Shown here: one piece after another, positions 955-29,358 of the stretch
Layout of the letters: each line of letters starts with the position of its first letter
Position numbering within the stretch: position 1 is the first letter of the stretch
DNA from: Alphaproteobacteria bacterium
GTDB lineage: Bacteria > Pseudomonadota > Alphaproteobacteria > RF32 > CAG-239
Length of the DNA stretch: 64,000 nt
Assembly (NCBI GenBank): GCA_045643605.1
Contig: JAZULC010000021.1
Location: 6,465 to 70,464, forward strand
Reading direction: 5' to 3'
The notes under the pieces: generated by a model
What the model saw: the letters and a program-made list of their open reading frames with translations, nothing else
What the model was told of the DNA's origin: nothing
The model's database searches: none
Program-made: the position numbers and the translations under genes

Positions 955-966
955 AAGGTAAAAAAT

Positions 967-2586: not shown

Positions 2587-5500
2587 GTAACGAAAGACTA
2601 ACACGTTCAGAAAGTTATATCAAAAAAACCAACCATGTTATAATGATGGTTGGTTTAGTGTCGCTTGTTGCGTTTGTCTTTGGTGTATTGTTGTTGATGA
2701 ATAGTGGCGAAGTTGAAACTACTTATGAAGAACCACAATTTAATGCTAATGATGATGCCTTAAATCTAGAAACAAATAATATTCTTACAGATAGTATTGA
2801 ATTTGAACAAATGGATACCGGAGAAGAACCGATTACTACAACACCATATCCTGTGGAAATGGGAAAAGTAGTATTAGGAACATCTGCTGATAATGTTTTA
2901 ACAATAGGAACTAATGGTAAAAAATCAATAAGAGTAATCTCTGTTAGTTTAGCAGATCCTCCTGCAGATGGATTTTCTTTTCAAGATGAATGTTCGGGTA
3001 CTGATTTAAGAGGAGATCAGACTTGTCATGTGTTTATGAAATGGAATCCTGTTGTTGCCGGAAATGTTCAAAATAATTTCATTATTTCATGGAAAGAAAC
3101 TAATGTTAGTACAAGTAGTGCAAAAGCCTCAAAAGTTCCTGTTCAGGGAAGTGCAGTTAATAAAGAAGATTGTAATTTCTGCGAGGCTACAGGTTCTGTA
3201 AAAACAGAAGATAAAAAAGAATTTAGCAAAAACAGGATAGCCAGAGGTCCTAATGGTGAGATTATAGGCTATATTGATGATGATGGATATGTTAGAGATG
3301 AAAATGGTAATATCATTGGTAGAGTTAATGCCCAAGGAATGATAGTAGATAATGATGGAAATATTATTGGTGTAGCAGATAATGAACAGTTAGTATATGA
3401 TGAATTTGGTAATGTAATAGGACGAGTACTTCCTGATGGAACGGTTGTAGATGCTAATGGTAACGTTATTGGCCGAAGGTTGCCTGACGGAACGGTTGTA
3501 GATGCTAACGGTAATGTTATTGGAAAAGCTGTTGATGCCGGATATGTATATGATGAAAATGGTAATATCATCGGTAGGGTTATGCCTGATGGAACGGTTG
3601 TAGATGCTAATGGTAATATTATCGGCAGAATGAGAGCAGATGGTTCTGTTGTTGATTTGAATGGTAATGTTATTGGTCATGTGGCAAAAACCGGTAAAAT
3701 TGCGTTAGGTGAAGATGGTAAACAAATCGGTGTCGTAATGCCTGATGGTACAGTTGTAGACACTGAAGGTAATATTGTTGGAATTGCCGATAAGGATGGA
3801 AATATAAAATCTTTTTCTAAAAAGAATGATAATGCAGTATATGATGAAAATGGAAATATTATCGGTTACGTAGATGAAAACGGTAATGTTGTAGATGCTA
3901 ATGGTAATATTATTGGAAAAGTTATGCCTGATGGTTCGGTTGTAGATAAAAATGGTAAAGTTATAGGAACGACCCAAAAACCTCAATATGTGTATGATGA
4001 AAATGGCAATATTATCGGCAGAGTAATGCCTGATGGTACGGTTGTAGATAAAAATGGTAATGTAATAGGACGAGTATTGCCTGATGGTACAGTTGTAGAT
4101 AAAGATGGTAAAGTTATAGGAAAGGTTGAATTAACAGATACAATAGGGGCATTAGTTAATACACAACTAATACCTTTTGGACCTGATGGAAAAGTTCTCG
4201 GTACATTGACTGCAAATGGTGAAATTATAGTGGTTGATAAAGATGAAAACAAAACTGTTGTTGGTAGAATTTTGCCGAATACATTAATTAAAAATTCTAA
4301 AGGTACAAAAATTATTGGAAAAGGTGTTCCTGGTGGTTTAATTGTTGGTTGGGGCTGTAAAAATGTCGGCTATTTGAATGAACAGGGAAGCATTGTTTCC
4401 GGCGCTAAAGAATTGCCATACAGAGTCATGCCTGATGGTGTAGTTCTTGATGAAACAAACAATTATGTTGGAGAGCCATTGAAAATTGGTAGTGTTTATG
4501 ATGATCAATGTAACTATTTGGGTAAAGTAAATAGCAGTGGTATAGTTCAAGATGATAATAGTAAATATGTTGGTTGTGTAAATCCTGATGGTGGTATTCT
4601 AAATGAAAACGGTGATCTTATAGGCAGAGTTAATGAGCCGGGCGTTGCTTTTGATTATGACGGTACATATCTCGGTTATGTTAATAATGAAAATAAGATT
4701 ATTTCAGAGAGTGGATTGCCGGTTGGATGTGTTAATTCTGCAAATAATGTTGTAGATTCTAAAGGAATGCTACTGGGAAAAGTATTTAAAAATAAGTATG
4801 CTTTTGACTTAAAAGGAAATTTTCTAAATATTATAAATAATAAAGGAGAAGTTGCACTTGGTGGTTCTACTTTAAGAGTTTATAGTAATAATATTTTGGT
4901 AGATTCTGATAACCATATTAACGGCGTTGCTTTTTCTGAACATACTCCGATAGTTAATTCTAAAGGTAGGTATATGGGCAGTGTATTTTTTGATGGAAAT
5001 GTATACGATGCTGGAGGAATGGTTATCGGACATGTATATGGTGATGCGTCAGGATTTTATAACGATACAATAGGTGTACCTCTGCATTTAGATTATGTTA
5101 TAGGCTTTAATGGAGACAAAATCGGTCAGGTGGCTTATGACGGTAAGGTGTTAAATAAGTTTGGTGAATATTTAGGCTATGTTAATGCAAAAGGTGCATA
5201 CTTTAACGATAAAGGAGAATATGCCGGAGGAGTTGTTAAAACCGGTTCAGCAATAGGTTATGACGGCGCTTATATAGGTTATGTTATTCCGCAGGGAGAT
5301 ATTATTGATTTGTCCGGTAAAATACAAGGAATGGCAACGGCAGACGGCAAAGCTCTGAATTTGCAAGGGGAAGTCGTAGGAGATATTATTGAGGAGGGTA
5401 TTGCCATAGATGTACTCGGAGATCCTAAAGGATATATAAATTCTATAGGAAATGTTATAAGCTTTAATAAAGAAAATTTAGCTATAGTATTGCCAGGTGG

Positions 5501-6020
5501 AGCAACTGATAAAGGTTTGAATTTATTAAGACGAGGAGCTGTTATGGATTTTTCCGGACAAATAATCGGTCACGTATTGCCAAATTCTGAAGTAATTGAT
5601 AAAGATGGCGTTGTTATCGGTAAAATATTGCCGGATGGTAAAGCTGTTAATCAATATGGAAAATTGGTCGGCGAACTAATTGACGGCGATATAGTTATTG
5701 ATGAAAAGGATAAAGTTGCAGGATATGTATTGTATAATGGTGATATTTTAGCTTTAGATGGTCTTGAAAATGGAAAATTATTGGCTTCAGGTGTCGCTAT
5801 TGATAAACAAAATGAAATTTTAGGCAGTGTATATAAAATTGGGGCAAGTGTACTCAGTAATGATGGAAATTATGTCGGAAGGTTAACAGCATCCGGCAAT
5901 GTAGTAGATACCAAAGGTAAAAATATAGGTTATATTAAAAATAATGGCTCATTTGTAGATTTGGATAAACATATAGCAGGATATGTTTTACAAGAAGTTG
6001 CACAAAATCGGAGGAATTAA
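2583..6020 (+). CDS. T4SS-embedded giant repeat protein (N-terminal TM anchor, Ig-like domain, DG/NG tandem repeats)
   Basis: 1145-aa uninterrupted ORF, translationally coupled to virB9. The N-terminus is a charged segment plus one TM helix (VIMMVGLVSLVAFVFGVLLLM). Around aa 90-175 the pattern resembles an Ig-like/ASH-type fold (VVLGTSADNVLTIGTNGKKSIRVISVSLADPPADGFSFQDECSGTDLRGDQTCHVFMKWNPVVAGNVQNNFIISW). The remaining ~900 aa are tandem repeats like MPDGTVVDANGNIIGRV. Confidence 0.7.
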   Translation: MSNERLTRSESYIKKTNHVIMMVGLVSLVAFVFGVLLLMNSGEVETTYEEPQFNANDDALNLETNNILTDSIEFEQMDTGEEPITTTPYPVEMGKVVLGTSADNVLTIGTNGKKSIRVISVSLADPPADGFSFQDECSGTDLRGDQTCHVFMKWNPVVAGNVQNNFIISWKETNVSTSSAKASKVPVQGSAVNKEDCNFCEATGSVKTEDKKEFSKNRIARGPNGEIIGYIDDDGYVRDENGNIIGRVNAQGMIVDNDGNIIGVADNEQLVYDEFGNVIGRVLPDGTVVDANGNVIGRRLPDGTVVDANGNVIGKAVDAGYVYDENGNIIGRVMPDGTVVDANGNIIGRMRADGSVVDLNGNVIGHVAKTGKIALGEDGKQIGVVMPDGTVVDTEGNIVGIADKDGNIKSFSKKNDNAVYDENGNIIGYVDENGNVVDANGNIIGKVMPDGSVVDKNGKVIGTTQKPQYVYDENGNIIGRVMPDGTVVDKNGNVIGRVLPDGTVVDKDGKVIGKVELTDTIGALVNTQLIPFGPDGKVLGTLTANGEIIVVDKDENKTVVGRILPNTLIKNSKGTKIIGKGVPGGLIVGWGCKNVGYLNEQGSIVSGAKELPYRVMPDGVVLDETNNYVGEPLKIGSVYDDQCNYLGKVNSSGIVQDDNSKYVGCVNPDGGILNENGDLIGRVNEPGVAFDYDGTYLGYVNNENKIISESGLPVGCVNSANNVVDSKGMLLGKVFKNKYAFDLKGNFLNIINNKGEVALGGSTLRVYSNNILVDSDNHINGVAFSEHTPIVNSKGRYMGSVFFDGNVYDAGGMVIGHVYGDASGFYNDTIGVPLHLDYVIGFNGDKIGQVAYDGKVLNKFGEYLGYVNAKGAYFNDKGEYAGGVVKTGSAIGYDGAYIGYVIPQGDIIDLSGKIQGMATADGKALNLQGEVVGDIIEEGIAIDVLGDPKGYINSIGNVISFNKENLAIVLPGGATDKGLNLLRRGAVMDFSGQIIGHVLPNSEVIDKDGVVIGKILPDGKAVNQYGKLVGELIDGDIVIDEKDKVAGYVLYNGDILALDGLENGKLLASGVAIDKQNEILGSVYKIGASVLSNDGNYVGRLTASGNVVDTKGKNIGYIKNNGSFVDLDKHIAGYVLQEVAQNRRN
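3240..6000 (+). repeat. coding tandem repeat array (8-9 aa half-units, about 17-aa double unit; consensus near LPDGTVVDxNGNVIGRV)
   Basis: Repeats are visible in the translation from IARGPNGEIIGYIDDDGYVRDENGNIIGRV to the C-terminus. The most regular copies lie at about 3400-4130, where DNA copies are identical or nearly so: the 32-mer cctgatggaacggttgtagatgctaatggtaa occurs at 3432-3463 and 3585-3616, and a 2-mismatch copy lies at 3483-3514. Confidence 0.9.
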
Positions 6021-6022
6021 AA

Positions 6023-9000
6023 TTGTTGTTGATAAATAAAAATAAAAAAATATTCAGCAAAGTTAGATTTGCATCTTTATTTTTATGCATTTTGTGTTTT
6101 GCTACAAACTCTTTTGCTCAAGAAATTACGGCTATAGATTTTAATGGCGATATATTAGGTAAAATTATTCCTGATGGAAAGGTAATAAGTACCGAAAATG
6201 AAATTTTAGGAAATGTTAATGCAGATAGTTTTGTTGTAGATAAAGATGGCGCATTGATTGGTGGTGTAGTTCCACAGGGAATTGCTATTGGTAATGATAA
6301 TACAGTGTTAGGGCGTATCAATGCTGATGGTTCGGTGAGACTTCCTTCTGGAAAGGTTGTTGGTAAAGCTTTACCTACCGGATTGATTGTTGATGAAACT
6401 TATAATTTAATTGGTGAAGTATTGTTTCCGGGGTTAGTGTATTCTGATGCAGGTAAAGCTGTCGGACGTTTAACCGGTGATGGCAGTTATACGAATATAG
6501 ATGGAAAATCTGTCGGTTTTATTTCAAGTGGAGGGTATGCTTATAAAAAAGATGGAGATTCTTATATCATTGACGGCCGGTTATTATCTTCTAAAATGGT
6601 AATTTCTTCAGAAGGTAAGTTTATTGGCAGTGTTGCTCTTGGTGGTAAAGTTACTGACTTTGATTCTAATGTAATAGGGTATATCCATGCTAATGGTTAT
6701 GCTTATAATGAAGAAGATAAAATCATTGGACATATTGTTAAAAACGGATATGCAATTTCCGATGATGGAGAATATTTAGGCTTTGTAAGCTATAATGGTG
6801 AAGTTATTAAGAATAATCAGGTTATAGGTTATTTGCGTTTTGATGATAATATCGTTGATAAAGAACAAAACATTATAGGATTTTTTGTAGATATTGCAGC
6901 AAGTTTTACTGATTTTAGCGGTAATTATATCGGTAGAATAATGCCAAAAGGAAAGGTTGTTAAAGGCAAAGATGAGATAGGTTCGGTTTTTGCAAAAGGT
7001 TTTGTTGTTGATAATGATGGTAATTTGATAGGAAAAATGGTAAATCCAGGTCCTGTGTTTGATTATCGAGGATCATTGATAGCTCATGCTTATAAAAATG
7101 GACAAGTAACATCCTTAACAGGTTCTTCAGTTGGTAAAATTATTGATAATAATGTTTTTAGTAATGTAGGAAAAGTTATCGGTGCAACATTTAAAAATGC
7201 GATTATTATTGATAAAAATAATAAATCTTTAGGAATGAATGGTGTTTCCGGAAATATAAGTTATGGTGACAGATATACAATTACGCCTTTTGGTTACGTT
7301 TATGGTTCAGATGGAGAGATTTCTGCTGAGAGTATGAACCTTGGAGCTATATATGATATATATGGTGCAGTTTTAGGATATATTACTCCAAATGCTACGA
7401 TAGTTAATAAAAATTATGATAAAATAGCAGAAATATTGCAGTTCGGATATGCTAAAAATGATAATAATAAAATTGCAGGTAAAAATATAGTTGTTGATTT
7501 TGGAATTAATAAAGCAGGTGATTTCTTCGGATGGCTGTCAGAGTCTAACCTGTTTTTGAATAAGGCAAAAAATGTTATAGCAAAAGTTTTGCCTGATATG
7601 TCTATTGTTGCTTCAGGTAAAAAGATAGAAAAAGTGTTATCTCCAAGAGATGGAAGTGCATACAAAAAGCAAATGGTAATCAATAAGGAAGGTAATTTAA
7701 TCGGTTACGTCAATGATAAAGCAGAAGTGCAAGATTTAGAATATGGTATAATCGGAAAAATTACAGAAAACGGCTATGCTTTAGATGAAACAGGTGCTTT
7801 AATTGGAGAAATTGTTGATTTAGGCACTGTTATAGATGATAAATGTAATTTTGTTGGAGTAATTACCCCAACAGGTGATGTAAGAAATTATAAAGATTCT
7901 GTTATTGGTAGAATTCTTCAAAATGGACAAGTTGTATCGCAAGGAGGCAGTGTTGTTGGTCATCGTGTGTTTAATAACATACTTATTGATCGTAACAATG
8001 AATTTTTTGCTACACCTGCAGTAAGTGGTTATGCGTTTGATGGTAAAAATAAAAAAATTGGTTGTATAGATATTAACGGATATTATAAAAATAAAGATAA
8101 TGAAATTTTAGCCGGTGTTTTGGAATATGCCCATGTAATGGGATATACTGATAAAATTATCGGAAGAGTAACTTTTGACGGAAATGTTGTTGATGAAGAT
8201 GGCAATGTAATTGGTAAAGTTACATTAAATGGCAACGTTGTAAGTGAAGACAATAAGGCTCTTGGACATATTTTCAAATATAGATACGCTTTTGATAATA
8301 ATAATGAATATTTAGGACGTGTTTTAGATAATGCAAAAGTAGTTAATAATCATAATGAAGATTTAGGATTTGTGAGTTATGAAGGCTATGTTATAGATAA
8401 TGGTGAGAAGATAGGTTATGCCAGCTATGATATGTATATTTACGATAATGATTCTAAAGCAATAGGATATATTGATAAAAACGGTGAAGTTAAAGACTTT
8501 AGTAATAATAAACTCGGTGATTTAGATAAAGGTTTTGTTTTAAATAGAAATGATAAATTAATCGGAAGAATTAAAAGAGATTATTGGGTTGTTAATAATG
8601 AAAAAGAAGTGTTGGGAGAATTGGCTATAAACGGCAAATTATATTCCCTTGATGGTAAAGTTATCGGTACTTTGACTCAAGATGGTAAGATAAAAGATAG
8701 CAAAGATAAAATTATTGCTACTCCGTATCCTCTTCAATATTATATGGGTAAGGTAAAAAAGAAACCTGTAAAAGAAGATAAAGAAATAAAGGTTCAAACT
8801 ATTGATGACGATAAGACAAATGAGGATGATACTGAAAAACCAGTAGTTTCTGAACAAAATAAAGCAGATATTGAAGATTTTAGCTCTAAAATTATAGGTA
8901 TAGCGCTTACACCTGATGGAGATTATCTGGGCGATATTATAGAAAACGGAGATGTTGTTGATAAAAAAGGAAATTTGATAGGTAAGAGAATGCCTGATGG

Positions 9001-10276
9001 CTTGATTATTGATGATGATGGAAATTTAATAGGAATAGAAGAAATTAAAAAACCAGCTTCACAAGATATATTTGTTCCTGCAGGAACTTTTGGTGATGGT
9101 GGAGCTTATGGTATCGGAAACGGTGTAAATAATTTAGGTCCCGGTGGAGGTTATGGTCCTGGAGAACGTTATAGCCAAGCTCGTGCTTTAGGATTGCAAG
9201 AAGCACAGAATTTACGTCGTCAATCTATGAGTGTTGGTAAAATAAGCACAAATATCAATAAGAGTAGTTTTGATGGATACCAGAAAGATTGGGGAGATGT
9301 TGCTCCTAAAGAGCTGTCAACTTGGCGTGTTGATATGAGTAATATGATTTTTGCTGATAAGCCTATTCCTGCTGTTTTGGCGAGATCTATTGATAGTTCA
9401 CATCCATCTCCTGTGGTTGCTTATGTTGAGAGAAATATATATGCAGAAGAGGGTAGAAATATCATTATTCCTGCAGGAAGCCGTGTTATGGGAGAACTTG
9501 CCGGGGCAGGTGAAGATAGTGGTGAAGCAAATTCTTATGCTACTAAAGTGGATATTACTTGGTCTCGTTTAATCCGTCCTGACGGTTCAATGTTTAAGTT
9601 AGAGGGAAAAACTGCTGATGCACAAGGAAGAGGTGGTGCTCTTGGATATTTGGATAAACAACTAATAAACAAATATGCTGGTCCTGTAGCTACTTCGTTA
9701 GTTACAAGTGCAATAGATGTGTTATTGGCGACTAATGATAATAGTGATGGAGAAACAGAGACTTCAAAACAACAAGCTATGTCTGATGCACGTGATAATT
9801 TTAATGATGCAATGAAACGTGTTACTAATCAAATGTTTGAAGATGCAATGAGTATTAAACCGTTAACTTATGTTCCGGCTGGTACGAGAATAATTATTTA
9901 TCCTATGGTTGATTTATGGGTAAGAACAGCTGAAGATGATGCTGAAGGTGGATCAGAATCTTTGAAAAAACCAACGGTATTCATAGATGATGCCCAAAAA
10001 TCAAAAGAAAGAAAAGATGATCAGAAAAGAGTTAATAGCCAGGTGGTATATTCTGAAAATATGTCAGATAATGTAGAGCAACAAGGCGGAGGAATGAAAT
10101 TAATAAATGATAATTCTTCTCAAAACAATACTAATAAACCTGCAGCAGGAACAGTACCTCCTGTAACTGTAAGTCCGATAGGTACACCTCCACCTCCTCC
10201 GGCATCTTATAGTTCTGAAAAGACCGGAAAGTCAAATAACACGAACTCTTCAAGCAGTGTGCCGCAATTATTCTAA
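6023..10276 (+). CDS. virB10: type IV secretion system protein VirB10 (TrbI-type C-terminal domain) with a ~1000-aa N-terminal repeat extension and a Sec signal peptide
   Basis: 1417 aa. TTG start with GGAGGA 7 nt upstream. N-terminus MLLINKNKKIFSKVRFASLFLCILCFATNSFA|QE. The same DG/NG repeats run through about aa 36-1010, followed by a Gly-rich linker. The VirB10/TrbI core then follows (KPIPAVLARSIDSSHPSPVVAYVERNIYAEEGRNIIIPAGSRVMGE; ITWSRLIRPDGSMFKLEGKTADAQGRGGALGYLDKQL; LTYVPAGTRIIIYP). The protein ends in a Pro-rich C-terminal tail. Confidence 0.85.
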   Translation: MLLINKNKKIFSKVRFASLFLCILCFATNSFAQEITAIDFNGDILGKIIPDGKVISTENEILGNVNADSFVVDKDGALIGGVVPQGIAIGNDNTVLGRINADGSVRLPSGKVVGKALPTGLIVDETYNLIGEVLFPGLVYSDAGKAVGRLTGDGSYTNIDGKSVGFISSGGYAYKKDGDSYIIDGRLLSSKMVISSEGKFIGSVALGGKVTDFDSNVIGYIHANGYAYNEEDKIIGHIVKNGYAISDDGEYLGFVSYNGEVIKNNQVIGYLRFDDNIVDKEQNIIGFFVDIAASFTDFSGNYIGRIMPKGKVVKGKDEIGSVFAKGFVVDNDGNLIGKMVNPGPVFDYRGSLIAHAYKNGQVTSLTGSSVGKIIDNNVFSNVGKVIGATFKNAIIIDKNNKSLGMNGVSGNISYGDRYTITPFGYVYGSDGEISAESMNLGAIYDIYGAVLGYITPNATIVNKNYDKIAEILQFGYAKNDNNKIAGKNIVVDFGINKAGDFFGWLSESNLFLNKAKNVIAKVLPDMSIVASGKKIEKVLSPRDGSAYKKQMVINKEGNLIGYVNDKAEVQDLEYGIIGKITENGYALDETGALIGEIVDLGTVIDDKCNFVGVITPTGDVRNYKDSVIGRILQNGQVVSQGGSVVGHRVFNNILIDRNNEFFATPAVSGYAFDGKNKKIGCIDINGYYKNKDNEILAGVLEYAHVMGYTDKIIGRVTFDGNVVDEDGNVIGKVTLNGNVVSEDNKALGHIFKYRYAFDNNNEYLGRVLDNAKVVNNHNEDLGFVSYEGYVIDNGEKIGYASYDMYIYDNDSKAIGYIDKNGEVKDFSNNKLGDLDKGFVLNRNDKLIGRIKRDYWVVNNEKEVLGELAINGKLYSLDGKVIGTLTQDGKIKDSKDKIIATPYPLQYYMGKVKKKPVKEDKEIKVQTIDDDKTNEDDTEKPVVSEQNKADIEDFSSKIIGIALTPDGDYLGDIIENGDVVDKKGNLIGKRMPDGLIIDDDGNLIGIEEIKKPASQDIFVPAGTFGDGGAYGIGNGVNNLGPGGGYGPGERYSQARALGLQEAQNLRRQSMSVGKISTNINKSSFDGYQKDWGDVAPKELSTWRVDMSNMIFADKPIPAVLARSIDSSHPSPVVAYVERNIYAEEGRNIIIPAGSRVMGELAGAGEDSGEANSYATKVDITWSRLIRPDGSMFKLEGKTADAQGRGGALGYLDKQLINKYAGPVATSLVTSAIDVLLATNDNSDGETETSKQQAMSDARDNFNDAMKRVTNQMFEDAMSIKPLTYVPAGTRIIIYPMVDLWVRTAEDDAEGGSESLKKPTVFIDDAQKSKERKDDQKRVNSQVVYSENMSDNVEQQGGGMKLINDNSSQNNTNKPAAGTVPPVTVSPIGTPPPPPASYSSEKTGKSNNTNSSSSVPQLF
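6128..9050 (+). repeat. coding tandem repeat array, same family as 3240-6000 but more degenerate
   Basis: The translation shows dozens of units, e.g. DFNGDILGKIIPDGKVISTENEILGNV, TFDGNVVDEDGNVIGKVTLNGNVVSEDNKALGHI and MPDGLIIDDDGNLIG. The array is interrupted by a Lys/Glu/Asp-rich spacer at about 8740-8880. Confidence 0.85.
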
Positions 10277-10291
10277 GTAAAGGAAAAAGAT

Positions 10292-11260
10292 ATGAGCTAT
10301 GCCGTATTGGAATCAGTTTTAAGACCTTTAGCATATTGGTATAAACAAGATAATATAGAAGAGGTGGTCATAAATCATGCCGGGCAGATTTGGTTGCGTT
10401 TGCGTGGAAAAAGGGCTTATCCGTGGGTAGCATATAATGATGAAAAACTATCAAAAGAATATCTTTTTGATTTGTTATATATTATTGCTAATACCTATGA
10501 AATACCTTTTGATCCGGTTAGTGGTTCGCCATTAGTGTTTGCGACGATTCCAGGTGAGCATCGTTTTTCTGCAATAGCGGGAAGAAACGTTATGTATGAT
10601 GCTGAAGATGCAACAGGCGGTGTTGCTATAGCAATTCGTTTGCATAGTGAAGATGTTTCTTTTGGTTTGGAAGATTATGGTTTATCACAAGGAAAACCAT
10701 TACATAAGATTAATCCGTTGCAACAGATTGCTGATCCGGAAGATCCGTATGAGCGATTGATTTTAAGTTTGCGCAGAGGTGACCATATTTTGATTTCCGG
10801 AGCTACATCAACAGGTAAAACAACTTTTTTGAATAACCTGTTAAAAATAATTAATATAAATAAAAGAGTTTTAACAATAGAAGATACCAGAGAGTTGTTA
10901 GTTCCGCACCCAAACAGAGTACATCTTGTTCTTTCACGTACGGAGCAGACCAATGAAATGGATTATAAAAAAGTTATAGACCTGGTTGTACGTTTTACTC
11001 CTGATGCCATAATAGGAGGAGAAATTTCAACAAGTAATGCCGGTGCGATTTGGGAACTTATGGGATCAGGACATGATAACTGTATGGCGACAATTCACGC
11101 AGAAAACTCTGAAGCAGCATATCAGGCATTTGCAGATCGTATTTTGCACACATATCCTGCATATAATAGAGAAAAAACTATTGCTGAAATGCGTAAAAAA
11201 CTAAGAGTTGTACAAATTAATCGTGATGGTAACTTACGTGCAATTACTGAAGTCACTTAA
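10292..11260 (+). CDS. virB11: type IV secretion ATPase VirB11
   Basis: 322 aa. Walker A ISGATSTGKTTFLN. His-box-like GSGHDNCMATIHAE. The size and position immediately after virB10 are typical. Confidence 0.9.
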   Translation: MSYAVLESVLRPLAYWYKQDNIEEVVINHAGQIWLRLRGKRAYPWVAYNDEKLSKEYLFDLLYIIANTYEIPFDPVSGSPLVFATIPGEHRFSAIAGRNVMYDAEDATGGVAIAIRLHSEDVSFGLEDYGLSQGKPLHKINPLQQIADPEDPYERLILSLRRGDHILISGATSTGKTTFLNNLLKIININKRVLTIEDTRELLVPHPNRVHLVLSRTEQTNEMDYKKVIDLVVRFTPDAIIGGEISTSNAGAIWELMGSGHDNCMATIHAENSEAAYQAFADRILHTYPAYNREKTIAEMRKKLRVVQINRDGNLRAITEVT

Positions 11261-17816: not shown

Positions 17817-18281
17817 ATGAAGATTAAAGAAATTATATTAGGTCGCGCTTGGATACCTGCAATTGGTTATGCTTTGGCAATAGGATTTATTAATAATCTG
17901 TTGATTGCACCATTTGTTGATATTCAGCAAGTAGATTGGGCGCAACTTGCAACTGCGTTGGGAATTTTGCTCAGTATTTCCGGAGCTCGTGATTATTTGA
18001 CAAAAAACAGTCTTGATGCGATACCGGAGAATATTTCATCTAAAGGATGGAAACGATATTGGATACCAATTATCGGCTGGGTTTTGTTTTTTGGCTATTT
18101 TTTGAATTGTGCCATTGCCCCGTACTTTAAGTTGCAAATCAATGATTGGGTTCAATTGTCAACAACGTTGACGGTGATGTTAGGAATTTCCGGTTTTCGT
18201 GAGGTTGTATTACTTCCTAAAAGAACACGAAGAAAGAAAACTAAAAAGACTTCAAAAAAACAACCTACTGGAGAACAGTAG
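17817..18281 (+). CDS. hypothetical membrane protein with internal duplication and a basic C-terminal tail (holin-like architecture)
   Basis: 154 aa. The two halves are homologous: WIPAIGYALAIGFINNLLIAPFVDIQQVDWAQLATALGILLSISGARDYL versus WIPIIGWVLFFGYFLNCAIAPYFKLQINDWVQLSTTLTVMLGISGFREVV. The tail is KRTRRKKTKKTSKKQ. Confidence 0.5.
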   Translation: MKIKEIILGRAWIPAIGYALAIGFINNLLIAPFVDIQQVDWAQLATALGILLSISGARDYLTKNSLDAIPENISSKGWKRYWIPIIGWVLFFGYFLNCAIAPYFKLQINDWVQLSTTLTVMLGISGFREVVLLPKRTRRKKTKKTSKKQPTGEQ

Positions 18282-24893: not shown

Positions 24894-25052
24894 TTTTAGA
24901 ATCCTTTCAACAATAATTTAACAATTTTTTTATAAAAAAATAGTAATTTTTGTACAATGTTACAGAATTGTGAATTTTATGTTTGATAATATTGCAACTA
25001 TTGAAAACAAAAAAGGTTTGTGGTAGTATCAGATATAAATGGAGAGATTTAT

Positions 25053-25985
25053 ATGTATATATGGATATTGTTAGCATCTTTTGTTACTGCATTGTTTGCA
25101 TTTAATTTGAGTGTTCGTCCTGATTCTGCAAAATTATATCAGGAGTCTCAAGCTGATGCTGTGGTTACGAAATTAGTAAGACAGCATGATGCAGCAGAAG
25201 GTTGGTTTAAATATGTCAAAAAAAATATAGAAAATGGTAATAGTAATGTTGCTTTGTATGAACAAGACAATTCAGAAGAAGATGTTACCGCTGATGATGA
25301 AATAAGCGAAGATGCTGAAAATACTAAAGAAGAAATAGAAAATTCTGAAACAGAAAATGTAGAAGGAACGGAAAATAATGGAGCTATTTTGTCAGGCTCT
25401 TTCCAAGATACAATAGATGCTGACAGACTTGGTTATTTGAGCAAATATATAAATGGTATGAAGGTTAACGGTCTCCCTAAAGCCATAACAAAGATTTTTT
25501 GTGTCGGACATGACACTGAAAATGCTATTGAAAATGAAGGCGCGAGTATAGGAGAATGCCTAACGAAAAATGGTGATTTATATATTTTGACTGTTGCTCC
25601 TGTACCTGTCCGTTGGCAGAGCCGTGATGCAAATGGTGAATCTACAGGAGTTCCTAATACGTCCATGCGTCAGGTTTTATTTAGATATGGTGGTGCTGCA
25701 TATCGTATCGGATATGTGGTTACAAGAGATTTCTATCCTGAGGATATGAAAGATTTAACAGTTTATGTAGGAAGTGATGAATTTGAACTCAAAAAGTTCG
25801 AATATATTATTCATAATTTCTCGTATAATATTGACCATACGCAAGAAAATAATGAAGATAAGCAGAAATCTATTGTACGTAGAAATATAGTAACACCGAT
25901 ACCTGTTGCAATGAATGAATTTATAGAAAAAAAATGTGGTAGTAAAAAAGAGACCAATTGTTTGGTTGTAATGAGCTCAATATAG
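25053..25985 (+). CDS. hypothetical N-terminally anchored protein, operon partner of the giant pilin-like protein
   Basis: The ATG at 25053 follows GGAGAG (the track uses a GTG at 25020). The N-terminus MYIWILLASFVTALFAFNL is a single hydrophobic helix, followed by an acidic region. No family was recognised. Confidence 0.5.
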   Translation: MYIWILLASFVTALFAFNLSVRPDSAKLYQESQADAVVTKLVRQHDAAEGWFKYVKKNIENGNSNVALYEQDNSEEDVTADDEISEDAENTKEEIENSETENVEGTENNGAILSGSFQDTIDADRLGYLSKYINGMKVNGLPKAITKIFCVGHDTENAIENEGASIGECLTKNGDLYILTVAPVPVRWQSRDANGESTGVPNTSMRQVLFRYGGAAYRIGYVVTRDFYPEDMKDLTVYVGSDEFELKKFEYIIHNFSYNIDHTQENNEDKQKSIVRRNIVTPIPVAMNEFIEKKCGSKKETNCLVVMSSI

Positions 25986-25994
25986 GAGGCTGAA

Positions 25995-28900
25995 ATGAAA
26001 GTTAAATATGATATATCACAAGCAGGAAGTATGATGATAGAGGCACTTGCCATGTTGGGCCTTATTTCCATGGTTACGCCTGTTGTATATAAAAAGTCTG
26101 CAGATCGTATGGTTGAGCTGCAAGATATCAATGCTGCCAGTCAAATGAGAACATTAAGTCAAGCTTTGGATTCATATATCAAAGATCACTATAATGAAAT
26201 TACAGATGAACATAAATCAATTGACTGGGGCGAGTTAGCCAATTATTTGCCACAAGGAATTGTTGATAATGGTAATGTTTATGGCGCTCTGGGCGATAAA
26301 TATAGCGCTTTTGTAAAGTGTAGAAAATTTGGTGGCGGAGAGTGTGAAGAAGGGGATACGGGAGATGATCGTTCTCTTGTCGGATATATTGTCGCCAATG
26401 TAAGGGATAATGATAGTATCTCGGCACAAAGAGCTTCAAGAATTGCCACAATGATAGGTTCAAATGGTGGTGTTGTTGATGAACCAATCAACGGTGGTAA
26501 TTCTAAAATTTATGGTTCTCAAGGTGCATGGGAGATGGATTTGGATGCTGGTTTTAATGATCCTGTTGATGGGGCGGCGCCTGCCGTTAACAGTGTTGTT
26601 GTTGCTTCCGAAGCTGCTATTAATTCGGCTACAGAATGGGACGATAGTGAGTTTTTACACAGAAATTATAAGGCTGATAGACGCTTAAATGCAATGTACA
26701 CTGATTTGTATATGAATGATAAAGATGGTAATATGCATAATATAGAAGGTGTCGGACAGTTGATTATCGGTGAGGCCAATTCAGGTAGTAATTTTGGTGA
26801 AAGGCTTGGTAAAGAAGATGCTTTATATGTTGGTAATAATGGAAGTTCTTATTTAACAGGAAAACTTACAGCGGCATCTGAAGCGTTGAAAGTTTTGCCT
26901 GAAAGTTTAACATATCAAGTAAAAGGTACAAGCGGTTCAACAAATAACGGAATTTTCCAAATCAGTGATGGAGCTCTTGATTACAAAGTAGGTAGCCAAA
27001 ATTTGAATATCGGCAAAGATTCCGGACTTGTATATAATGACCAAAAAGGAAAAGAGTTTGTTTTGAATGGTGGTAAGTTATCTTATGATAATGATTTGAT
27101 AAAAGCAGATACTACAGATACAAGTGGTCGTTATGTCAGCTTTGTTGAAGATAAAGTGCATATCAATAAAGAGAAAACAAATGTCAATAATCAGTTGATT
27201 TCCGACAGCAAAGATTATATTGATGATGAAGGAAATTGGAGTACTGATGACGGGTATAAGGTACTCGGTAATACAACTTATTTTGATAATAGTAATACGT
27301 ATATACCAGGTTATACGCTATCTGATGGAAATCGTAGAAATATTAATGATGCGCAAACAGTTTTAACAGGTCTGACTATGGCCACTGCAATTGATACAGG
27401 GTATATGAAAGCCAGAGATTCTGAAATATCATTCTTGAGAGCAGGACGTTCTAGTCTGTCTGATAATAAAGTAGGTTGGAATTTTGAAGCAGAAGAAAGA
27501 GGCGTAAAAATTGGCGATAACAGAGATGCAAATGGACGCCCTAATAGTGAAGCAAGAATAATTGTTGCTTCTACAGGATTTATGAGATATGGTCATGATG
27601 GACGAGGTGATAGTGGTAGTGTAGATAAAGGATCTATCTTATTGGATGTTGGGCCTAACGGGGATAAAAATTATATAGAGTTAAATAAAAATGAAGGCCT
27701 GAGTACTTATATGAAGCATGGTAATAATACCTCTGTTGTAGAAGATGGTGATTATAAAGTACTGGTGAAGAAAAGTACAAGCAATAGTGAAAAAAATAAC
27801 ATCAAAATTATGGGTAATAATGCCGGTAGTATGGAATTTATAAATGGTTCTGCAAATGAAGAAAATGGTAGTGATACTGTTGATACAAATGGTCATATAA
27901 GTGATGATTATTCAGGAATATTTATTGCACCTGATAAAACTCCAGATGATAATGTAGCTGAAGCTGATGTAGATATTCATGCATCCGGGGATATGTATGT
28001 TCGTGCCGGAGTAGCAGAAACTCTAACAGATGAGGATATTGCTAATACTGCTAATGATGGCAAATTTAAATTTGCTAACGCAGGTGATATAGTATATGAT
28101 AAAAATATATATATTAAAGGTAATAATTTATTAGTTGATGATAGTACTAAAGGGGATAGTAAAGAAAATGCTTGGGTACATATTCGTAAAGGGGCAATAG
28201 AGGTCAATAGTGATTATAGTGAAAATGATAAGTCGGCTGATGAAGGCACCGGATATGTTAAAGCTGATCGCTTTGTAGTTGATAATAGTGATAATACAAG
28301 AAAGCCTAATGCGAGAACAGCGGTAGAATCAACGGAAACAGGAAGTGTGCAATATGACCATTATATGGTAGATCCTGCTTATACATCAGTTATGCATGAT
28401 ATTAAACTGACTACTCGCGGAGGTGCGCGTTTAAGTGATATTTTACCTGACTTCATAAATAAAGGTATTTATGTAGTAGATAACAGTAACTCTGAAGATT
28501 ATGTAAATAAAAGTAAGAAAGGTTCAAGTGAGTTTGCTTCGGCTTATTTAGGTAATGTTCCTGCTCCACAATGTCCTCCAGGATATGCAAAAGTTATTAC
28601 TTTAACACCAAGTGGTTGGCATATGGCACAAGTTGGTACTCTTACTAAATATACAAGTGGCGAAAATGATGATAAAGATAGATTATATCTTAATGAGCTG
28701 ACTAATTTTAAAGACACTAGCTCTACCCCTGGTTCACCTACTTATCAGCCAGTTCAAAATTATGCTGATGTTGTGACTGATATAGATGCTAGTGATCTTA
28801 GTGATGTAGCGAGCAAGGTTACAGACTTGGCACAATCAGTTGATAAGTTGTTCCAAAGCAGTACATGGATGAAAAGTGCAATTAGAGTGGCTAGTAGTGA

Positions 28901-29318
28901 CGATAGAATAGGTGAAGGACAGTTTTCTTATACAACAACAGATGACACTCCATGGGGTTGGGAAACTTATATGGGATTTATATATCCTGAAACAAAATGG
29001 AAAGAGCTATTTAAAGCTTCTGGCCTTGGTGGAGTAGAAGAAGCTGAGGGATATGATACAACTGTATATTGGAATTTATTCCCTGTTGATAAGTATTCAT
29101 TAGAAGGATATGCTACTGTATATTGCTATTTTGACCGTAAAGGTTTGATTGTAGGAAATAATTATTGGAATAATGAGTTGGTTGATACCACATATGATCA
29201 ATTTTCAAATCATAGAGACGTAACTCCTGGTGCAATTAAAGATGATGAAAATAATAGTAATGAAGCATATAGAAAGCGTCTGAATAATCCAAAGTTAAAA
29301 TATACTACCGAATGGTAA
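25995..29318 (+). CDS. giant (1107 aa) protein with a prepilin-type N-terminal leader and hydrophobic helix
   Basis: AGGAGG lies 6 nt before the ATG. The N-terminus MKVKYDISQAG|SMMIEALAMLGLISMVTPVVY fits a class III (prepilin) signal: short polar leader, Gly at -1, Glu at +5, then about 20 hydrophobic residues. The rest is a Gly/Asn/Asp/Ser-rich ORFan sequence. A strong terminator follows. Confidence 0.6.
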   Translation: MKVKYDISQAGSMMIEALAMLGLISMVTPVVYKKSADRMVELQDINAASQMRTLSQALDSYIKDHYNEITDEHKSIDWGELANYLPQGIVDNGNVYGALGDKYSAFVKCRKFGGGECEEGDTGDDRSLVGYIVANVRDNDSISAQRASRIATMIGSNGGVVDEPINGGNSKIYGSQGAWEMDLDAGFNDPVDGAAPAVNSVVVASEAAINSATEWDDSEFLHRNYKADRRLNAMYTDLYMNDKDGNMHNIEGVGQLIIGEANSGSNFGERLGKEDALYVGNNGSSYLTGKLTAASEALKVLPESLTYQVKGTSGSTNNGIFQISDGALDYKVGSQNLNIGKDSGLVYNDQKGKEFVLNGGKLSYDNDLIKADTTDTSGRYVSFVEDKVHINKEKTNVNNQLISDSKDYIDDEGNWSTDDGYKVLGNTTYFDNSNTYIPGYTLSDGNRRNINDAQTVLTGLTMATAIDTGYMKARDSEISFLRAGRSSLSDNKVGWNFEAEERGVKIGDNRDANGRPNSEARIIVASTGFMRYGHDGRGDSGSVDKGSILLDVGPNGDKNYIELNKNEGLSTYMKHGNNTSVVEDGDYKVLVKKSTSNSEKNNIKIMGNNAGSMEFINGSANEENGSDTVDTNGHISDDYSGIFIAPDKTPDDNVAEADVDIHASGDMYVRAGVAETLTDEDIANTANDGKFKFANAGDIVYDKNIYIKGNNLLVDDSTKGDSKENAWVHIRKGAIEVNSDYSENDKSADEGTGYVKADRFVVDNSDNTRKPNARTAVESTETGSVQYDHYMVDPAYTSVMHDIKLTTRGGARLSDILPDFINKGIYVVDNSNSEDYVNKSKKGSSEFASAYLGNVPAPQCPPGYAKVITLTPSGWHMAQVGTLTKYTSGENDDKDRLYLNELTNFKDTSSTPGSPTYQPVQNYADVVTDIDASDLSDVASKVTDLAQSVDKLFQSSTWMKSAIRVASSDDRIGEGQFSYTTTDDTPWGWETYMGFIYPETKWKELFKASGLGGVEEAEGYDTTVYWNLFPVDKYSLEGYATVYCYFDRKGLIVGNNYWNNELVDTTYDQFSNHRDVTPGAIKDDENNSNEAYRKRLNNPKLKYTTEW

Positions 29319-29320
29319 CA

Positions 29321-29358
29321 AAAGAACACCACCGAGAAATCGGTGGTGTTCTTTTTTT
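29321..29358 (+). terminator. rho-independent terminator
   Basis: 14-bp GC-containing stem AAAGAACACCACCG / CGGTGGTGTTCTTT, loop AGAAAT, followed by a T-run. Confidence 0.85.

What the first reader, a model, noticed from the sequence alone, without database searches (positions are those of the whole stretch)
25020..29358. Two-gene operon ending in a 1107-aa protein with a prepilin-type N-terminus (a giant pilin or pseudopilin-like protein), with no pilus machinery nearby
Seen in the sequence: the 25995 ORF starts MKVKYDISQAG|SMMIEALAMLGLISMVTPVVYKKSADRMVELQ. It has a short polar leader, Gly at -1, Glu at +5 and about 20 hydrophobic residues followed by an amphipathic helix. This is the class III signal/N-terminal helix layout of type IV pilins and T2SS/Tad pseudopilins. 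It continues for more than 1000 aa of Gly/Asn/Asp/Ser/Thr-rich sequence that I cannot assign. It is preceded, 9 nt upstream and with an AGGAGG site, by a 311-aa protein that also starts with a single hydrophobic helix (MYIWILLASFVTALFAFNL). A very strong terminator follows it. Established knowledge: major pilins are about 150 aa, and even large minor pilins or tip adhesins are usually several-fold smaller than this. Inference: the protein could be a pilus-tip or surface-displayed adhesin using a pilin-like anchor, or a novel envelope fibre subunit. The neighbours (uvrB, der) are unrelated housekeeping genes.
Basis: partly seen in the sequence, partly recalled or inferred. Interest (0 to 1): 0.65.

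Follow-up and report, generated by a model that had tools for sequence, protein, structure and literature searches.

The report
Giant PilV-like pilin with partner gene
The 1107-residue protein is a real but oversized relative of PilV, the tip adhesin of type IVb pili. It carries a new, highly conserved end domain and is always encoded with a small pilin-like partner in hundreds of uncultured gut Alphaproteobacteria, so it is a new variant of a known kind of cell-surface fibre subunit.

Summary
Two co-directional genes (25053-25985 and 25995-29318) are 9 nt apart, with AGGAGG at the junction and a 16-bp-stem terminator after the second. They sit between uvrB and der.

The pilin reading is supported. 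The leader ends in Gly, Glu is at +5, and a 21-residue hydrophobic helix follows. Gly-1 is present in 223 of 224 family members. Residues ~14-300 are homologous to PilV, the tip adhesin and minor pilin of IncI-type type IVb pili: hhalign 99% (E 6e-18), and tblastn of the window protein itself gives E 1e-6.

After the pilin module come a hypervariable, beta-rich stalk (~300-720) and a ~390-aa C-terminal module with no Pfam or PDB relatives. That module has invariant blocks and two invariant cysteines.

The upstream gene is a universally co-conserved partner. It is tentatively a pilin-like paralogue with no leader and no Glu5.

No pilus machinery lies in the window or within 10 kb in 85 related loci. 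Relatives do encode an orphan A24 prepilin peptidase and very many PilS/bundlin-type pilins.

Most likely it is a tip-displayed modular minor pilin. Whether this genome has a peptidase or assembly machinery could not be tested.

The parts
25001..25029 (+). Candidate sigma-70-type promoter (TTGAAA-17-TAGTAT with an extended TG) in the uvrB/partner intergenic region
   Evidence: Consensus scan only. The number of promoter-like sites in the region is not above the shuffled expectation, so this is weak evidence.
25041..25046 (+). GGAGAG ribosome-binding site, 6 nt upstream of the partner's ATG
   Evidence: Read directly from the sequence.
25053..25985 (+). Partner gene, 310 aa. It starts directly with a hydrophobic helix (MYIWILLASFVTALFAFNLSVRPD) and has no leader, no Gly-1 and no Glu5. 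A long helix and a YLP.G-type motif follow. The window copy carries a lineage-specific acidic insert at about residues 70-120.
   Evidence: A same-strand ORF of at least 120 aa lies immediately upstream of the giant gene in 61 of 73 loci, nearly all starting MY.W. Alignment A4 has M1, Y2, W4, D24 and C295 invariant. hhalign against the giant's pilin module gives 85% probability, E 6e-6. There is no Pfam hit.
25984..25989 (+). AGGAGG ribosome-binding site overlapping the partner's stop codon, 5 nt before the giant gene's ATG (9-nt intergenic gap)
   Evidence: Read directly from the sequence.
25995..26027 (+). Leader peptide of the class III signal (MKVKYDISQAG), ending in Gly-1
   Evidence: Gly-1 is present in 223 of 224 homologues. 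Leaders are 9-27 aa and variable in sequence.
26028..26894 (+). PilV-like pilin module (aa 12-300). It comprises the hydrophobic alpha1N helix with Glu+5 (aa 12-32), an amphipathic alpha1C helix, and a beta-sheet head carrying the YLPQG, RASRIATMIGSNGG, G.W, FLHR and LNAMYTDLYM motifs.
   Evidence: hhalign of A2 against Ralstonia PilV gives 99.0%, E 5.8e-18, over 242 columns. tblastn of the window residues gives E 1e-6, and all listed hits are annotated pilV. Pfam Shufflon_N scores above its cutoff in 3 relatives and matches 10 of 30 N-modules. The AlphaFold2 model has pLDDT mostly 80-95 for residues 1-210, with a helix at 2-64 and beta-strands after it.
26895..28154 (+). Hypervariable Asp/Gly/Asn/Ser-rich stalk predicted to be mostly beta (aa 301-720). 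Its length ranges from 282 to 517 aa across the family.
   Evidence: The BLAST coverage map falls from about 106 to about 13 of 119 hits in this region. The mean majority-residue frequency is 0.27. Sub-threshold bactofilin-like (beta-helix) hits occur at the start of the stalk in relatives. The AlphaFold2 model is low-confidence and mostly beta-strand here.
28155..29318 (+). Conserved C-terminal module (aa 721-1107, plus the stop codon). Invariant blocks are PAYTSVMHDIKLTTRGGARLSDILPDFINKGIY, VPAPQCPPGY and YATVYCYFDR, with a terminal Trp. Cys860 and Cys1044 are invariant.
   Evidence: Alignments A1 and A3. There is no Pfam or PDB sequence relative. The profile finds 417 representative clusters, and in the 150 best the module is always C-terminal in proteins of 900-1470 aa, apart from fragments.
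29320..29355 (+). Intrinsic terminator hairpin (16-bp stem, 7 G-C pairs, 4-nt loop, T-run), 2 nt after the stop codon. It lies between the convergent giant gene and der.
   Evidence: I1.

Best explanation
The 25995 gene encodes a chromosomal, oversized, modular member of the PilV family of type IVb minor pilins.

Shown here:
- The protein has a class III signal: an 11-residue leader ending in Gly, Glu at +5, and a 21-residue hydrophobic helix.
- A pilin module follows (aa ~12-300) that is homologous to the constant N-terminal region of PilV tip adhesins.
- Then come a hypervariable beta-rich stalk and a novel C-terminal module under strong purifying selection.
- The gene is co-transcribed with a universally co-conserved partner.

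Inferred mechanism:
- The preprotein inserts into the inner membrane.
- An A24 prepilin peptidase cleaves after Gly11.
- The hydrophobic alpha1N helix with Glu5 docks the protein into a type IVb filament built of PilS/bundlin-type pilins.
- Because of its bulk it sits at the tip, as TcpB, CofB and PilV do. There it may prime assembly, and it presents the conserved C-module about 800 residues away from the pilin core, for binding a conserved ligand on a host, partner cell or substrate.
- The partner has no leader and no Glu5, so it could only occupy the very tip position or act as a membrane-bound assembly factor or chaperone. It probably pairs with the giant through its N-terminal helix.
For: Class III signal:
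- Gly-1 is present in 223 of 224 homologues.
- Glu+5 and much of alpha1 are invariant.
- This is the only such N-terminus among the window's ORFs.

PilV homology:
- Pfam Shufflon_N scores 32.3, 30.4 and 28.9 bits against a 27.5-bit cutoff in three relatives. The match covers profile positions 58-251, which is the globular head. It hits 10 of 30 N-modules.
- tblastn of relative P0094 hits 2676 plasmid records; the annotated matches among the 15 listed rows are all pilV tip adhesin, with a best E of 5e-10.
- The window's own residues 14-295 hit PilV at E 1e-6.
- The family profile against PilV gives hhalign 99.0%, E 5.8e-18.
- The AlphaFold2 N-module model is confident and shows a helix at residues 2-64 followed by a beta-sheet.

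Lineage context:
- A Peptidase_A24 gene lies 2-3 kb from the giant gene in L038 and L049 (60 bits).
- That peptidase family has 314 clusters in these Alphaproteobacteria, against 306 for the giant.
- PilS_N/Bundlin-type pilins are found in at least 7868 clusters.

Operon and partner:
-.

Literature frame:
- Large T4b minor pilins are tip-located initiators, and Glu5-less minor pilins can only be the first subunit (PMC5207764).
- Modular pilins are widespread, and the largest noted in that survey is 860 aa (PMC8179133).
Against: - The window protein itself hits no curated model (N_methyl, Shufflon_N, TadE).
- Position +1 is Ser, Thr or Gly rather than the hydrophobic residue of the classical motif.
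- Foldseek found no significant pilin match for either model.
- No assembly ATPase, platform protein, secretin, A24 peptidase or PilS-like pilin is present in the 64-kb window.
- No machinery is seen within 10 kb of the giant gene in 85 related loci or in the 5 peptidase and short-pilin loci.
- A published survey of a gut alphaproteobacterial lineage with reduced genomes (Rs-D84) mentions type IV pili only for another lineage (PMC12306168). It is only an inference that the window belongs to such a lineage.
- The distal C-module is highly conserved, whereas adhesin tips are often the variable part.
- Tip location, cleavage and ligand binding are all inferred, not shown.
Confidence: 0.6

Rival explanations
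1. Pilus-independent envelope fibre. The pilin-derived N-terminus now serves only as an inner-membrane anchor, cleaved or not. The giant and its partner form a two-subunit stub that holds a long beta-rich fibre in or across the envelope, without any type IV pilus assembly machinery.
For: No machinery lies in the window or in any +/-10 kb flank. The pair is an isolated two-gene unit among housekeeping genes in all loci. It is retained where neighbouring genes have been lost. The C-module is strongly conserved, like a structural or enzymatic core. The partner has no leader and so needs no peptidase.
Against: Gly-1 and Glu+5 are conserved across more than 220 divergent homologues, which is hard to explain for a plain anchor. 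An A24 peptidase family of similar breadth exists in the lineage, along with thousands of PilS-like pilins. A protein this large cannot cross the outer membrane without some conduit.
Confidence: 0.17
2. Contact adhesin for the type IV secretion system. As PilV thin pili stabilise IncI mating pairs, the giant pilin would attach the bacterium to a partner or host cell so that the VirB-type T4SS encoded 15 kb upstream can deliver or take up substrates.
For: The characterised PilV proteins serve conjugative transfer, according to the annotation of the hits. In the Ralstonia reference the T4b pilus operon lies directly beside VirB8/9/10 genes. The window carries virB8-11 with giant repeat-bearing VirB proteins. 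Reduced-genome gut Alphaproteobacteria have been proposed to depend on partner cells (PMC12306168).
Against: No linkage between the giant gene and a T4SS was seen in the other contexts examined. The 15-kb separation in the window is filled with unrelated housekeeping genes. This concerns the biological role and does not exclude the best explanation.
Confidence: 0.1
3. Flagellum-associated envelope protein, suggested by its position next to fliL, fliM, DUF6468 and MotE-like genes in many relatives.
For: fliM lies within 10 kb in 43 of 85 related loci. fliL is the immediate, divergently transcribed neighbour in L001 and L003.
Against: Transcription is divergent, not shared. The pair persists with the flagellar genes decayed (L005) or absent (window, L004, L041, L054, L072). 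There is no homology to any flagellar protein.
Confidence: 0.03
4. GspK-like pseudopilin of a type II secretion-type piston, rather than a surface pilus subunit.
For: It is a large minor pilin-type protein paired with a Glu5-less pilin-like protein, which recalls GspK-type tip complexes (PMC5207764). One homologue of the short pilins is labelled PulG by a source.
Against: There is no hit to T2SS pseudopilin models. The specific homology is to PilV of T4b pili, and the short pilins match PilS_N/Bundlin. No Gsp genes were seen. An extension of about 800 residues is implausible inside a periplasmic pseudopilus.
Confidence: 0.05

Closest known systems
PilV, the shufflon-encoded minor pilin and tip adhesin of IncI-type (R64-like) type IVb thin pili (Pfam PF04917 Shufflon_N)
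   Same: The N-terminal ~300 residues are homologous: hhalign 99%, E 6e-18, with shared YLP.G(F/Y), I(A/G)S.IG..GG(Y/F)V, G.W, (Y/F)L.R and LN(A/T)M.TDL.M motifs. Both have a pilin helix followed by a conserved head and then a non-conserved region.
   Different: The giant is 2-3 times longer (1107 aa, against 512 aa for the Ralstonia PilV). It has no shufflon: no repeated inverted repeats and no Rci recombinase nearby. Its C-terminal end is the most conserved part rather than the switchable part. It is chromosomal and isolated from any pil operon. It is always paired with a unique upstream partner.
TcpB (Vibrio cholerae) and CofB (ETEC), the single large minor pilins of type IVb pili
   Same: They share the proposed logic: a pilin module with Glu5 plus a flexible, beta-rich C-terminal extension stabilised by disulfides. 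They sit at the tip and initiate assembly (PMC5207764).
   Different: No significant sequence or fold similarity was found. TcpB appears only at E 0.84-1.1 and TM below 0.35 in Foldseek. TcpB and CofB are about 420-520 aa and lie inside their pilus operons.
Modular type IV pilins such as PilB and PilC of Streptococcus sanguinis (PMC8179133)
   Same: The design principle is the same: a small pilin 'carrier' module with a functional module grafted onto its C-terminus for display on a filament.
   Different: Those were defined by the IPR012902/N_methyl motif, which this family does not match. The largest noted in that survey is 860 aa, whereas this family spans about 900-1470 aa. The grafted module here has no known domain signature.
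GspK-type Glu5-less minor pseudopilins (for the upstream partner)
   Same: The partner has a hydrophobic residue at position 5. It is encoded next to a large minor pilin and could only occupy the first (tip) position of a filament (PMC5207764). It shows weak profile similarity to the pilin helix and YLP.G region.
   Different: The partner has no leader peptide at all and starts at Met1 of the helix. It has no homology to GspK models. Its pilin-like nature rests on one 85%-probability hhalign match; against a single PilV sequence the probability is only 10%.

Membership tests
Type IV pilin / class III signal peptide proteins | Short hydrophilic leader ending in Gly at -1 | tested here: met
   The leader is MKVKYDISQAG. 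Gly-1 is present in 223 of 224 homologues, and leaders are 9-27 aa.
Type IV pilin / class III signal peptide proteins | Glu at +5 of the mature protein, followed by about 20 hydrophobic residues (alpha1N) | tested here: met
   The mature N-terminus is S-M-M-I-E followed by ALAMLGLISMVTPVVY. E16 is an invariant column in A1 and A2.
Type IV pilin / class III signal peptide proteins | Match to the curated N-terminal methylation/cleavage motif (Pfam PF07963 N_methyl; hydrophobic +1 residue) | tested here: not met
   There is no N_methyl hit for the window protein or any of the 30 N-modules, even at E up to 1. Position +1 is Ser, Thr or Gly. Type IVb pilins are known to deviate at +1 (own knowledge).
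Type IV pilin / class III signal peptide proteins | Pilin fold: a long alpha1 helix packed on an antiparallel beta-sheet | tested here: inconclusive
   The AlphaFold2 N-module model is confident (pLDDT mostly 80-95 for residues 1-210) and shows a helix at 2-64 plus beta-strands. Foldseek against the PDB gave no significant match (best E 0.42).
Type IV pilin / class III signal peptide proteins | Processing by a dedicated A24 prepilin peptidase encoded in the same genome | not testable with these tools
   The 64-kb window has none, and the rest of the genome was not available. Relatives L038 and L049 have Peptidase_A24 2-3 kb from the giant gene, and the peptidase family has 314 clusters in the lineage.
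Type IV pilin / class III signal peptide proteins | Assembly machinery (ATPase, platform protein, and a secretin in diderms) in the genome | not testable with these tools
   None was found in the window or in about 1.8 Mb of related loci. The only hit was VirB11. Whole genomes could not be searched.
PilV / Shufflon_N (PF04917) minor pilins | Sequence homology to the N-terminal constant region | tested here: met
   hhalign of A2 against PilV gives 99.0%, E 5.8e-18. tblastn of the window residues gives E 1e-6. Three relatives score above Pfam's cutoff. The window protein alone does not reach the Pfam threshold.
PilV / Shufflon_N (PF04917) minor pilins | Shufflon: alternative C-terminal segments flanked by repeated inverted repeats, plus an Rci recombinase | tested here: not met
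   There are no repeated inverted repeats in or after the gene, only the terminator hairpin and two short pairs likely due to chance. No recombinase is among the neighbours.
PilV / Shufflon_N (PF04917) minor pilins | Last gene of a type IVb pil operon on a conjugative plasmid or island | tested here: not met
   The context is chromosomal and housekeeping (uvrB, der, bamB-like, named from their translations) in the window, with conserved synteny in relatives. Compare the reference operon.
TadE/TadF/TadG pseudopilins (Tad/Flp system) | Match to TadE/TadG N-terminal models | tested here: not met
   There are no such Pfam or NCBIfam hits at E up to 1.
Autotransporter or other classical outer-membrane adhesins | C-terminal beta-barrel translocator or known passenger/adhesin repeats, with a Sec signal peptide | tested here: not met
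   The C-module has no Pfam family, and the N-terminus is of the class III type, not the Sec type.
Bactofilin (PF04519) | Bactofilin domain above threshold in a small cytoplasmic protein | tested here: not met
   Only sub-threshold hits occur in relatives (27.2-27.8 bits against a 27.9-bit cutoff) at the start of the stalk. This indicates a beta-helix-like repeat, not membership.

The most novel reading that the evidence does not exclude
The giant pilin and its leaderless, Glu5-less partner form a self-contained, two-subunit 'pilin stub'. It would be retained in genome-reduced, possibly partner-dependent gut Alphaproteobacteria even where no conventional pilus assembly machinery exists. It would display a novel conserved C-terminal module as a cell-to-cell contact or uptake device, perhaps working with the unusual VirB system nearby. 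That would be a previously undescribed way of using a pilin scaffold.
Probability: 0.15. Interest if true: 0.75.

Novelty: new variant of a known kind. Interest (0 to 1): 0.5.

Why it matters
The family is conserved but entirely unannotated: every name given by a source is 'hypothetical protein'. It occurs in at least 230 species-level genomes of uncultured human, livestock and rumen gut Alphaproteobacteria.

Its members, at about 900-1470 aa, are larger than the 860-aa extreme noted in a published survey of modular pilins.

The family also inverts the usual PilV logic. The centre varies, while the distal end, a ~390-aa domain with no known relatives, is nearly invariant. This points to a conserved ligand or activity that matters for life in the gut.

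The obligate leaderless partner, and the dispersal of pilin, peptidase and minor-pilin genes as orphans, differ from the single-operon organisation described for type IVb systems.

If the proteins are displayed on filaments, they are prime candidates for how these uncultured bacteria attach to hosts or partner cells.

Tried and rejected
1. Curated family models for both proteins (Pfam, NCBIfam) gave no meaningful hits. The C-module and the partner also have none.
2. PDB sequence-profile searches with the full-length, N-module and C-module alignments found nothing.
3. Foldseek of the full-length AlphaFold2 model (mean pLDDT 55.8) against the PDB gave no match at E 0.001 or better. TcpB appears only at E of about 1.
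4. Foldseek of the confident N-module model returned only noise, such as nanobodies. The fold-level test is therefore inconclusive.
5. Foldseek against the viral library gave tail-fibre-like matches at E of about 1e-3, but with TM below 0.1 and rmsd above 40 A. I discarded these.
6. The idea that the small gene upstream of pilV in the Ralstonia operon is a homologue of the partner was rejected (hhalign 0.5%). The partner is also unrelated to the PilS-like short pilin (0.07%).
7. A shufflon-like DNA switch was rejected: there are no repeated inverted repeats.
8. A flagellar role was considered because of fliL/fliM synteny and rejected, because the pair persists where those genes are absent.
9. 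I searched for T4b machinery with Ralstonia probes and for the lineage's own A24 and PilS genes in the window. Only VirB11 and noise turned up.
10. The window's source assembly could not be identified. The exact-sequence look-up found no record and the cluster has no accession, so the whole genome could not be examined.
11. R64 (AP005147) is not in the plasmid collection.
12. Rfam found no RNA element in the window.

Full report
**Observation**

The two ORFs are present as described. The giant gene runs from 25995 to 29318 (+) and encodes 1107 aa.

The upstream gene is listed from a GTG at 25020. Its homologues in other loci nearly all begin at the equivalent of the ATG at 25053 (MYIW...), which is preceded by GGAGAG. 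The partner is therefore 310 aa.

- The genes are 9 nt apart, and AGGAGG overlaps the upstream stop codon.
- A hairpin with a 16-bp stem, 7 G-C pairs and a T-run starts 2 nt after the giant gene's stop. It is the only terminator-like site in the 4.7 kb scanned.
- The neighbours are uvrB and der, on the other strand.
- A motif scan of every window ORF of at least 50 aa found a class III-like N-terminus only here.

**Extent of the family**

A homology search returned 306 clusters of unnamed proteins of about 900-1240 aa. Where a source gives a name, the organism is Alphaproteobacteria or Rhodospirillales from metagenome-assembled genomes. A scan of one genome per species found relatives in 230 stretches, and the 80 loci kept are almost all from uncultured gut, faecal or rumen Alphaproteobacteria.

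The N-terminus is strikingly conserved: a variable basic leader, then G|[ST][LM][ML][IV]EA.AML.LI..VTP..YKK..ER..ELQDIN. Gly-1 is present in 223 of 224 full-length members where the helix could be located, and leaders are 9-27 aa. Glu+5 is an invariant alignment column.

**Architecture**

BLAST coverage and the 51-sequence alignment define three parts:

- A conserved N-module, residues 1 to about 300.
- A hypervariable Asp/Gly/Asn/Ser-rich centre, about residues 300-720. Its length ranges from 282 to 517 aa, and the mean majority-residue frequency is 0.27.
- A conserved C-module, about residues 720-1107. It has long invariant blocks (PAYTSVMHDIKLTTRGGARLSDILPDFINKGIY, VPAPQCPPGY, YATVYCYFDR), a terminal Trp, and only two invariant cysteines (C860, C1044). 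A disulfide between them is an inference.

**What the N-module is**

The window protein alone hits no Pfam or NCBIfam model, including N_methyl. The family, however, connects clearly to PilV:

- 10 of 30 N-modules hit Pfam Shufflon_N, with a best E-value of 2.3e-10.
- Three full-length relatives exceed Pfam's gathering score (32.3, 30.4 and 28.9 bits against 27.5). The match covers profile positions 58-251 of 324, which is the globular head rather than the hydrophobic helix.
- tblastn of relative P0094 against 72,556 plasmids hits 2676 records. The annotated matches among the 15 rows listed are all 'shufflon system plasmid conjugative transfer pilus tip adhesin PilV', with a best E-value of 5e-10.
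- The window's own residues 14-295 hit PilV of Ralstonia plasmid pRMAN01 at E 1e-6, and every listed hit is pilV.
- hhalign of the N-module profile against that PilV gives 99.0% probability and E 5.8e-18 over 242 columns, with several shared motifs.

AlphaFold2 models the first ~210 residues confidently as a helix (residues 2-64) followed by beta-strands. Foldseek found no significant PDB neighbour for either model, so structural confirmation is lacking. I conclude that the N-module is a PilV-family pilin module.

**The rest of the protein**

- Sub-threshold bactofilin-like hits at the start of the stalk in relatives suggest beta-helical repeats.
- The full-length model is low-confidence beyond residue 210.
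- The C-module has no Pfam or PDB relative.
- A profile search of 1.84 billion representatives found 417 clusters (353 at E 1e-10 or better). In the best 150 the module always lies at the C-terminus of proteins of 900-1470 aa, apart from fragments. It appears confined to this architecture.
- There is no shufflon.

**The partner**

A gene of about 208-320 aa lies immediately upstream of the giant gene. A same-strand upstream ORF was found in 61 of the 73 loci where the giant gene could be located, and nearly all begin MY(I/L)W(V/I)(I/V)LATF...FNLS.R.D. This partner has no leader, no Gly-1 and a hydrophobic residue at position 5. Conserved cysteines follow, and there is no Pfam hit.

hhalign against the giant's N-module gives 85% probability and E 6e-6. 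Partner residues 10-93 align with giant residues ~19-92, covering the helix and the YLP.G motif. Extrapolating that register, the partner's Met1 corresponds to about the giant's cleavage site.

Against a single PilV sequence the support is weak (10%), although the register is the same. I therefore treat 'leaderless pilin-like paralogue' as tentative.

A third gene, encoding a Sec-signal protein of about 240-264 aa, follows the giant gene in 33-40 loci but is absent from the window.

**Genomic context**

In relatives the pair is transcribed divergently from a fliL-fliM-DUF6468-MotE-like-TPR cluster, with uvrB beyond it. That cluster is decayed in L005 and absent in L004 and in the window. fliM lies within 10 kb in 43 of 85 related loci. 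The pair therefore does not depend on the adjacent flagellar genes.

The window otherwise holds housekeeping genes and a virB8-11 type IV secretion cluster.

**Is there a pilus system?**

None is present in the window. Neither Pfam scans nor tblastn found an A24 peptidase, a PilS-like pilin, a T2SS-F protein or a secretin; the ATPase probes hit only VirB11.

Relatives do carry components:

- L038 and L049 encode Peptidase_A24 (E 3e-16) 2-3 kb from the giant gene.
- That peptidase family has 314 clusters, several named 'prepilin peptidase [Alphaproteobacteria bacterium]'. It sits as an orphan near groES/groEL.
- Short pilins near the giant gene match PilS_N and Bundlin, the type IVb major-pilin families.
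- That pilin family has at least 7868 clusters, and the search saturated. These genes are also monocistronic orphans.

The lineage thus has type IVb pilins, a processing peptidase and this PilV-like giant, all dispersed. An assembly ATPase, platform protein or secretin was not seen, and whole genomes could not be searched. The window's assembly could not be identified.

**Mechanism (inferred)**

By analogy with TcpB, CofB and PilV (PMC5207764), the preprotein would be cleaved after Gly11. It would then dock through alpha1N and Glu5 into a filament of PilS-like pilins. Because of its bulk it would sit at the tip, where it could also prime assembly.

The variable stalk would act as a spacer exposed to selection. 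The invariant C-module would bind a conserved target.

A partner without Glu5 could only be the first subunit of a filament, or else a membrane-bound assembly factor.

Rival readings are given separately: a machinery-independent anchored fibre, a T4SS contact adhesin, a flagellar role and a T2SS pseudopilin.

**Novelty**

Modular pilins are known and widespread. The largest noted in a survey based on the N_methyl motif was 860 aa (PMC8179133). This family is not detected by that motif and is larger. It carries an undescribed, conserved C-terminal domain, has an obligate novel partner, and is chromosomal and orphan.

I rate it a new variant of a known kind, of moderate interest. The main open question, whether a filament exists for it to sit on, can be tested directly with complete genomes.

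Noticed in passing
window 211-11260: A virB8-virB9-like-virB10-virB11 type IV secretion cluster in which two proteins are very large. One is 1145 aa and carries 7 Bflower_2 stretches plus DUF3659, RHS_repeat and sub-threshold ASH hits. The other is a 1417-aa VirB10 (TrbI domain at 1109-1298) with about 1000 residues of beta-flower repeats in front of it. Such extensions on core T4SS components look unusual.
   Followed up: partly
window 52904-56938 (+): A 1344-aa ORF with no Pfam hit at E 0.01 or better. It is another large unassigned protein in this window.
   Followed up: no
window 25260-25410 (partner aa ~70-120): The window's partner protein carries an acidic, low-complexity insert rich in Glu, Asp and Asn (EQDNSEEDVTADDEISEDAENTKEEIENSETENVEGTENNG). 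The 20 other partner homologues displayed in alignment A4 all lack it.
   Followed up: partly
L027:579-1280, L028:14964-15563, L038:465-1136, L065:1-596; proteins P0369-P0488: The PilS_N/Bundlin-type pilin family of these gut Alphaproteobacteria is very large: at least 7868 clusters at 90% identity, with the search saturated. The genes are scattered as monocistronic orphans among housekeeping genes. This suggests many paralogues per genome and strong diversification.
   Followed up: partly
L038:8444-9157, L049:14476-15189, L087:10001-10717, L088:10001-10681: The lineage's A24 prepilin peptidase is an orphan gene in conserved synteny near groES/groEL, not in any pilus operon. In L087 and L088 an unannotated or ion-transport-like gene of about 225 aa follows it.
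   Followed up: partly
L001:13206-13931, L003:12913-13707 and about 35 other loci: A conserved Sec-signal protein of 240-264 aa with no Pfam hit follows the giant gene in roughly half the loci. It may be a third component of the system. It is absent from the window.
   Followed up: partly
protein P0126 (966 aa): One protein carries the conserved C-module (residues 546-966) behind a different N-terminus that looks like a Sec signal (MKKYKRIMSILMVALFAVGFLTFPVSINA...). It is either a genuine alternative architecture or a chimeric assembly.
   Followed up: no
L005:7100-8097: The flagellar genes next to the pair look decayed in this relative. There is a 221-aa product with only FliMN_C, where other loci have a 361-aa FliM. 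This is a possible snapshot of flagellar loss in the lineage.
   Followed up: no
window 17817-18281 (+): A 154-aa membrane protein made of two similar halves, with weak sub-threshold hits to GTA_holin_3TM and DUF7220. Several A24 peptidase queries align to it, but only at noise level (E 0.1-0.9).
   Followed up: no
L086:15493-15972: In the Ralstonia pRMAN01 type IVb operon, the gene immediately upstream of pilV is also a small protein that starts directly with a hydrophobic helix. Profile comparison with the partner family gave no support for homology (0.5%), so the resemblance may be analogous or coincidental.
   Followed up: yes
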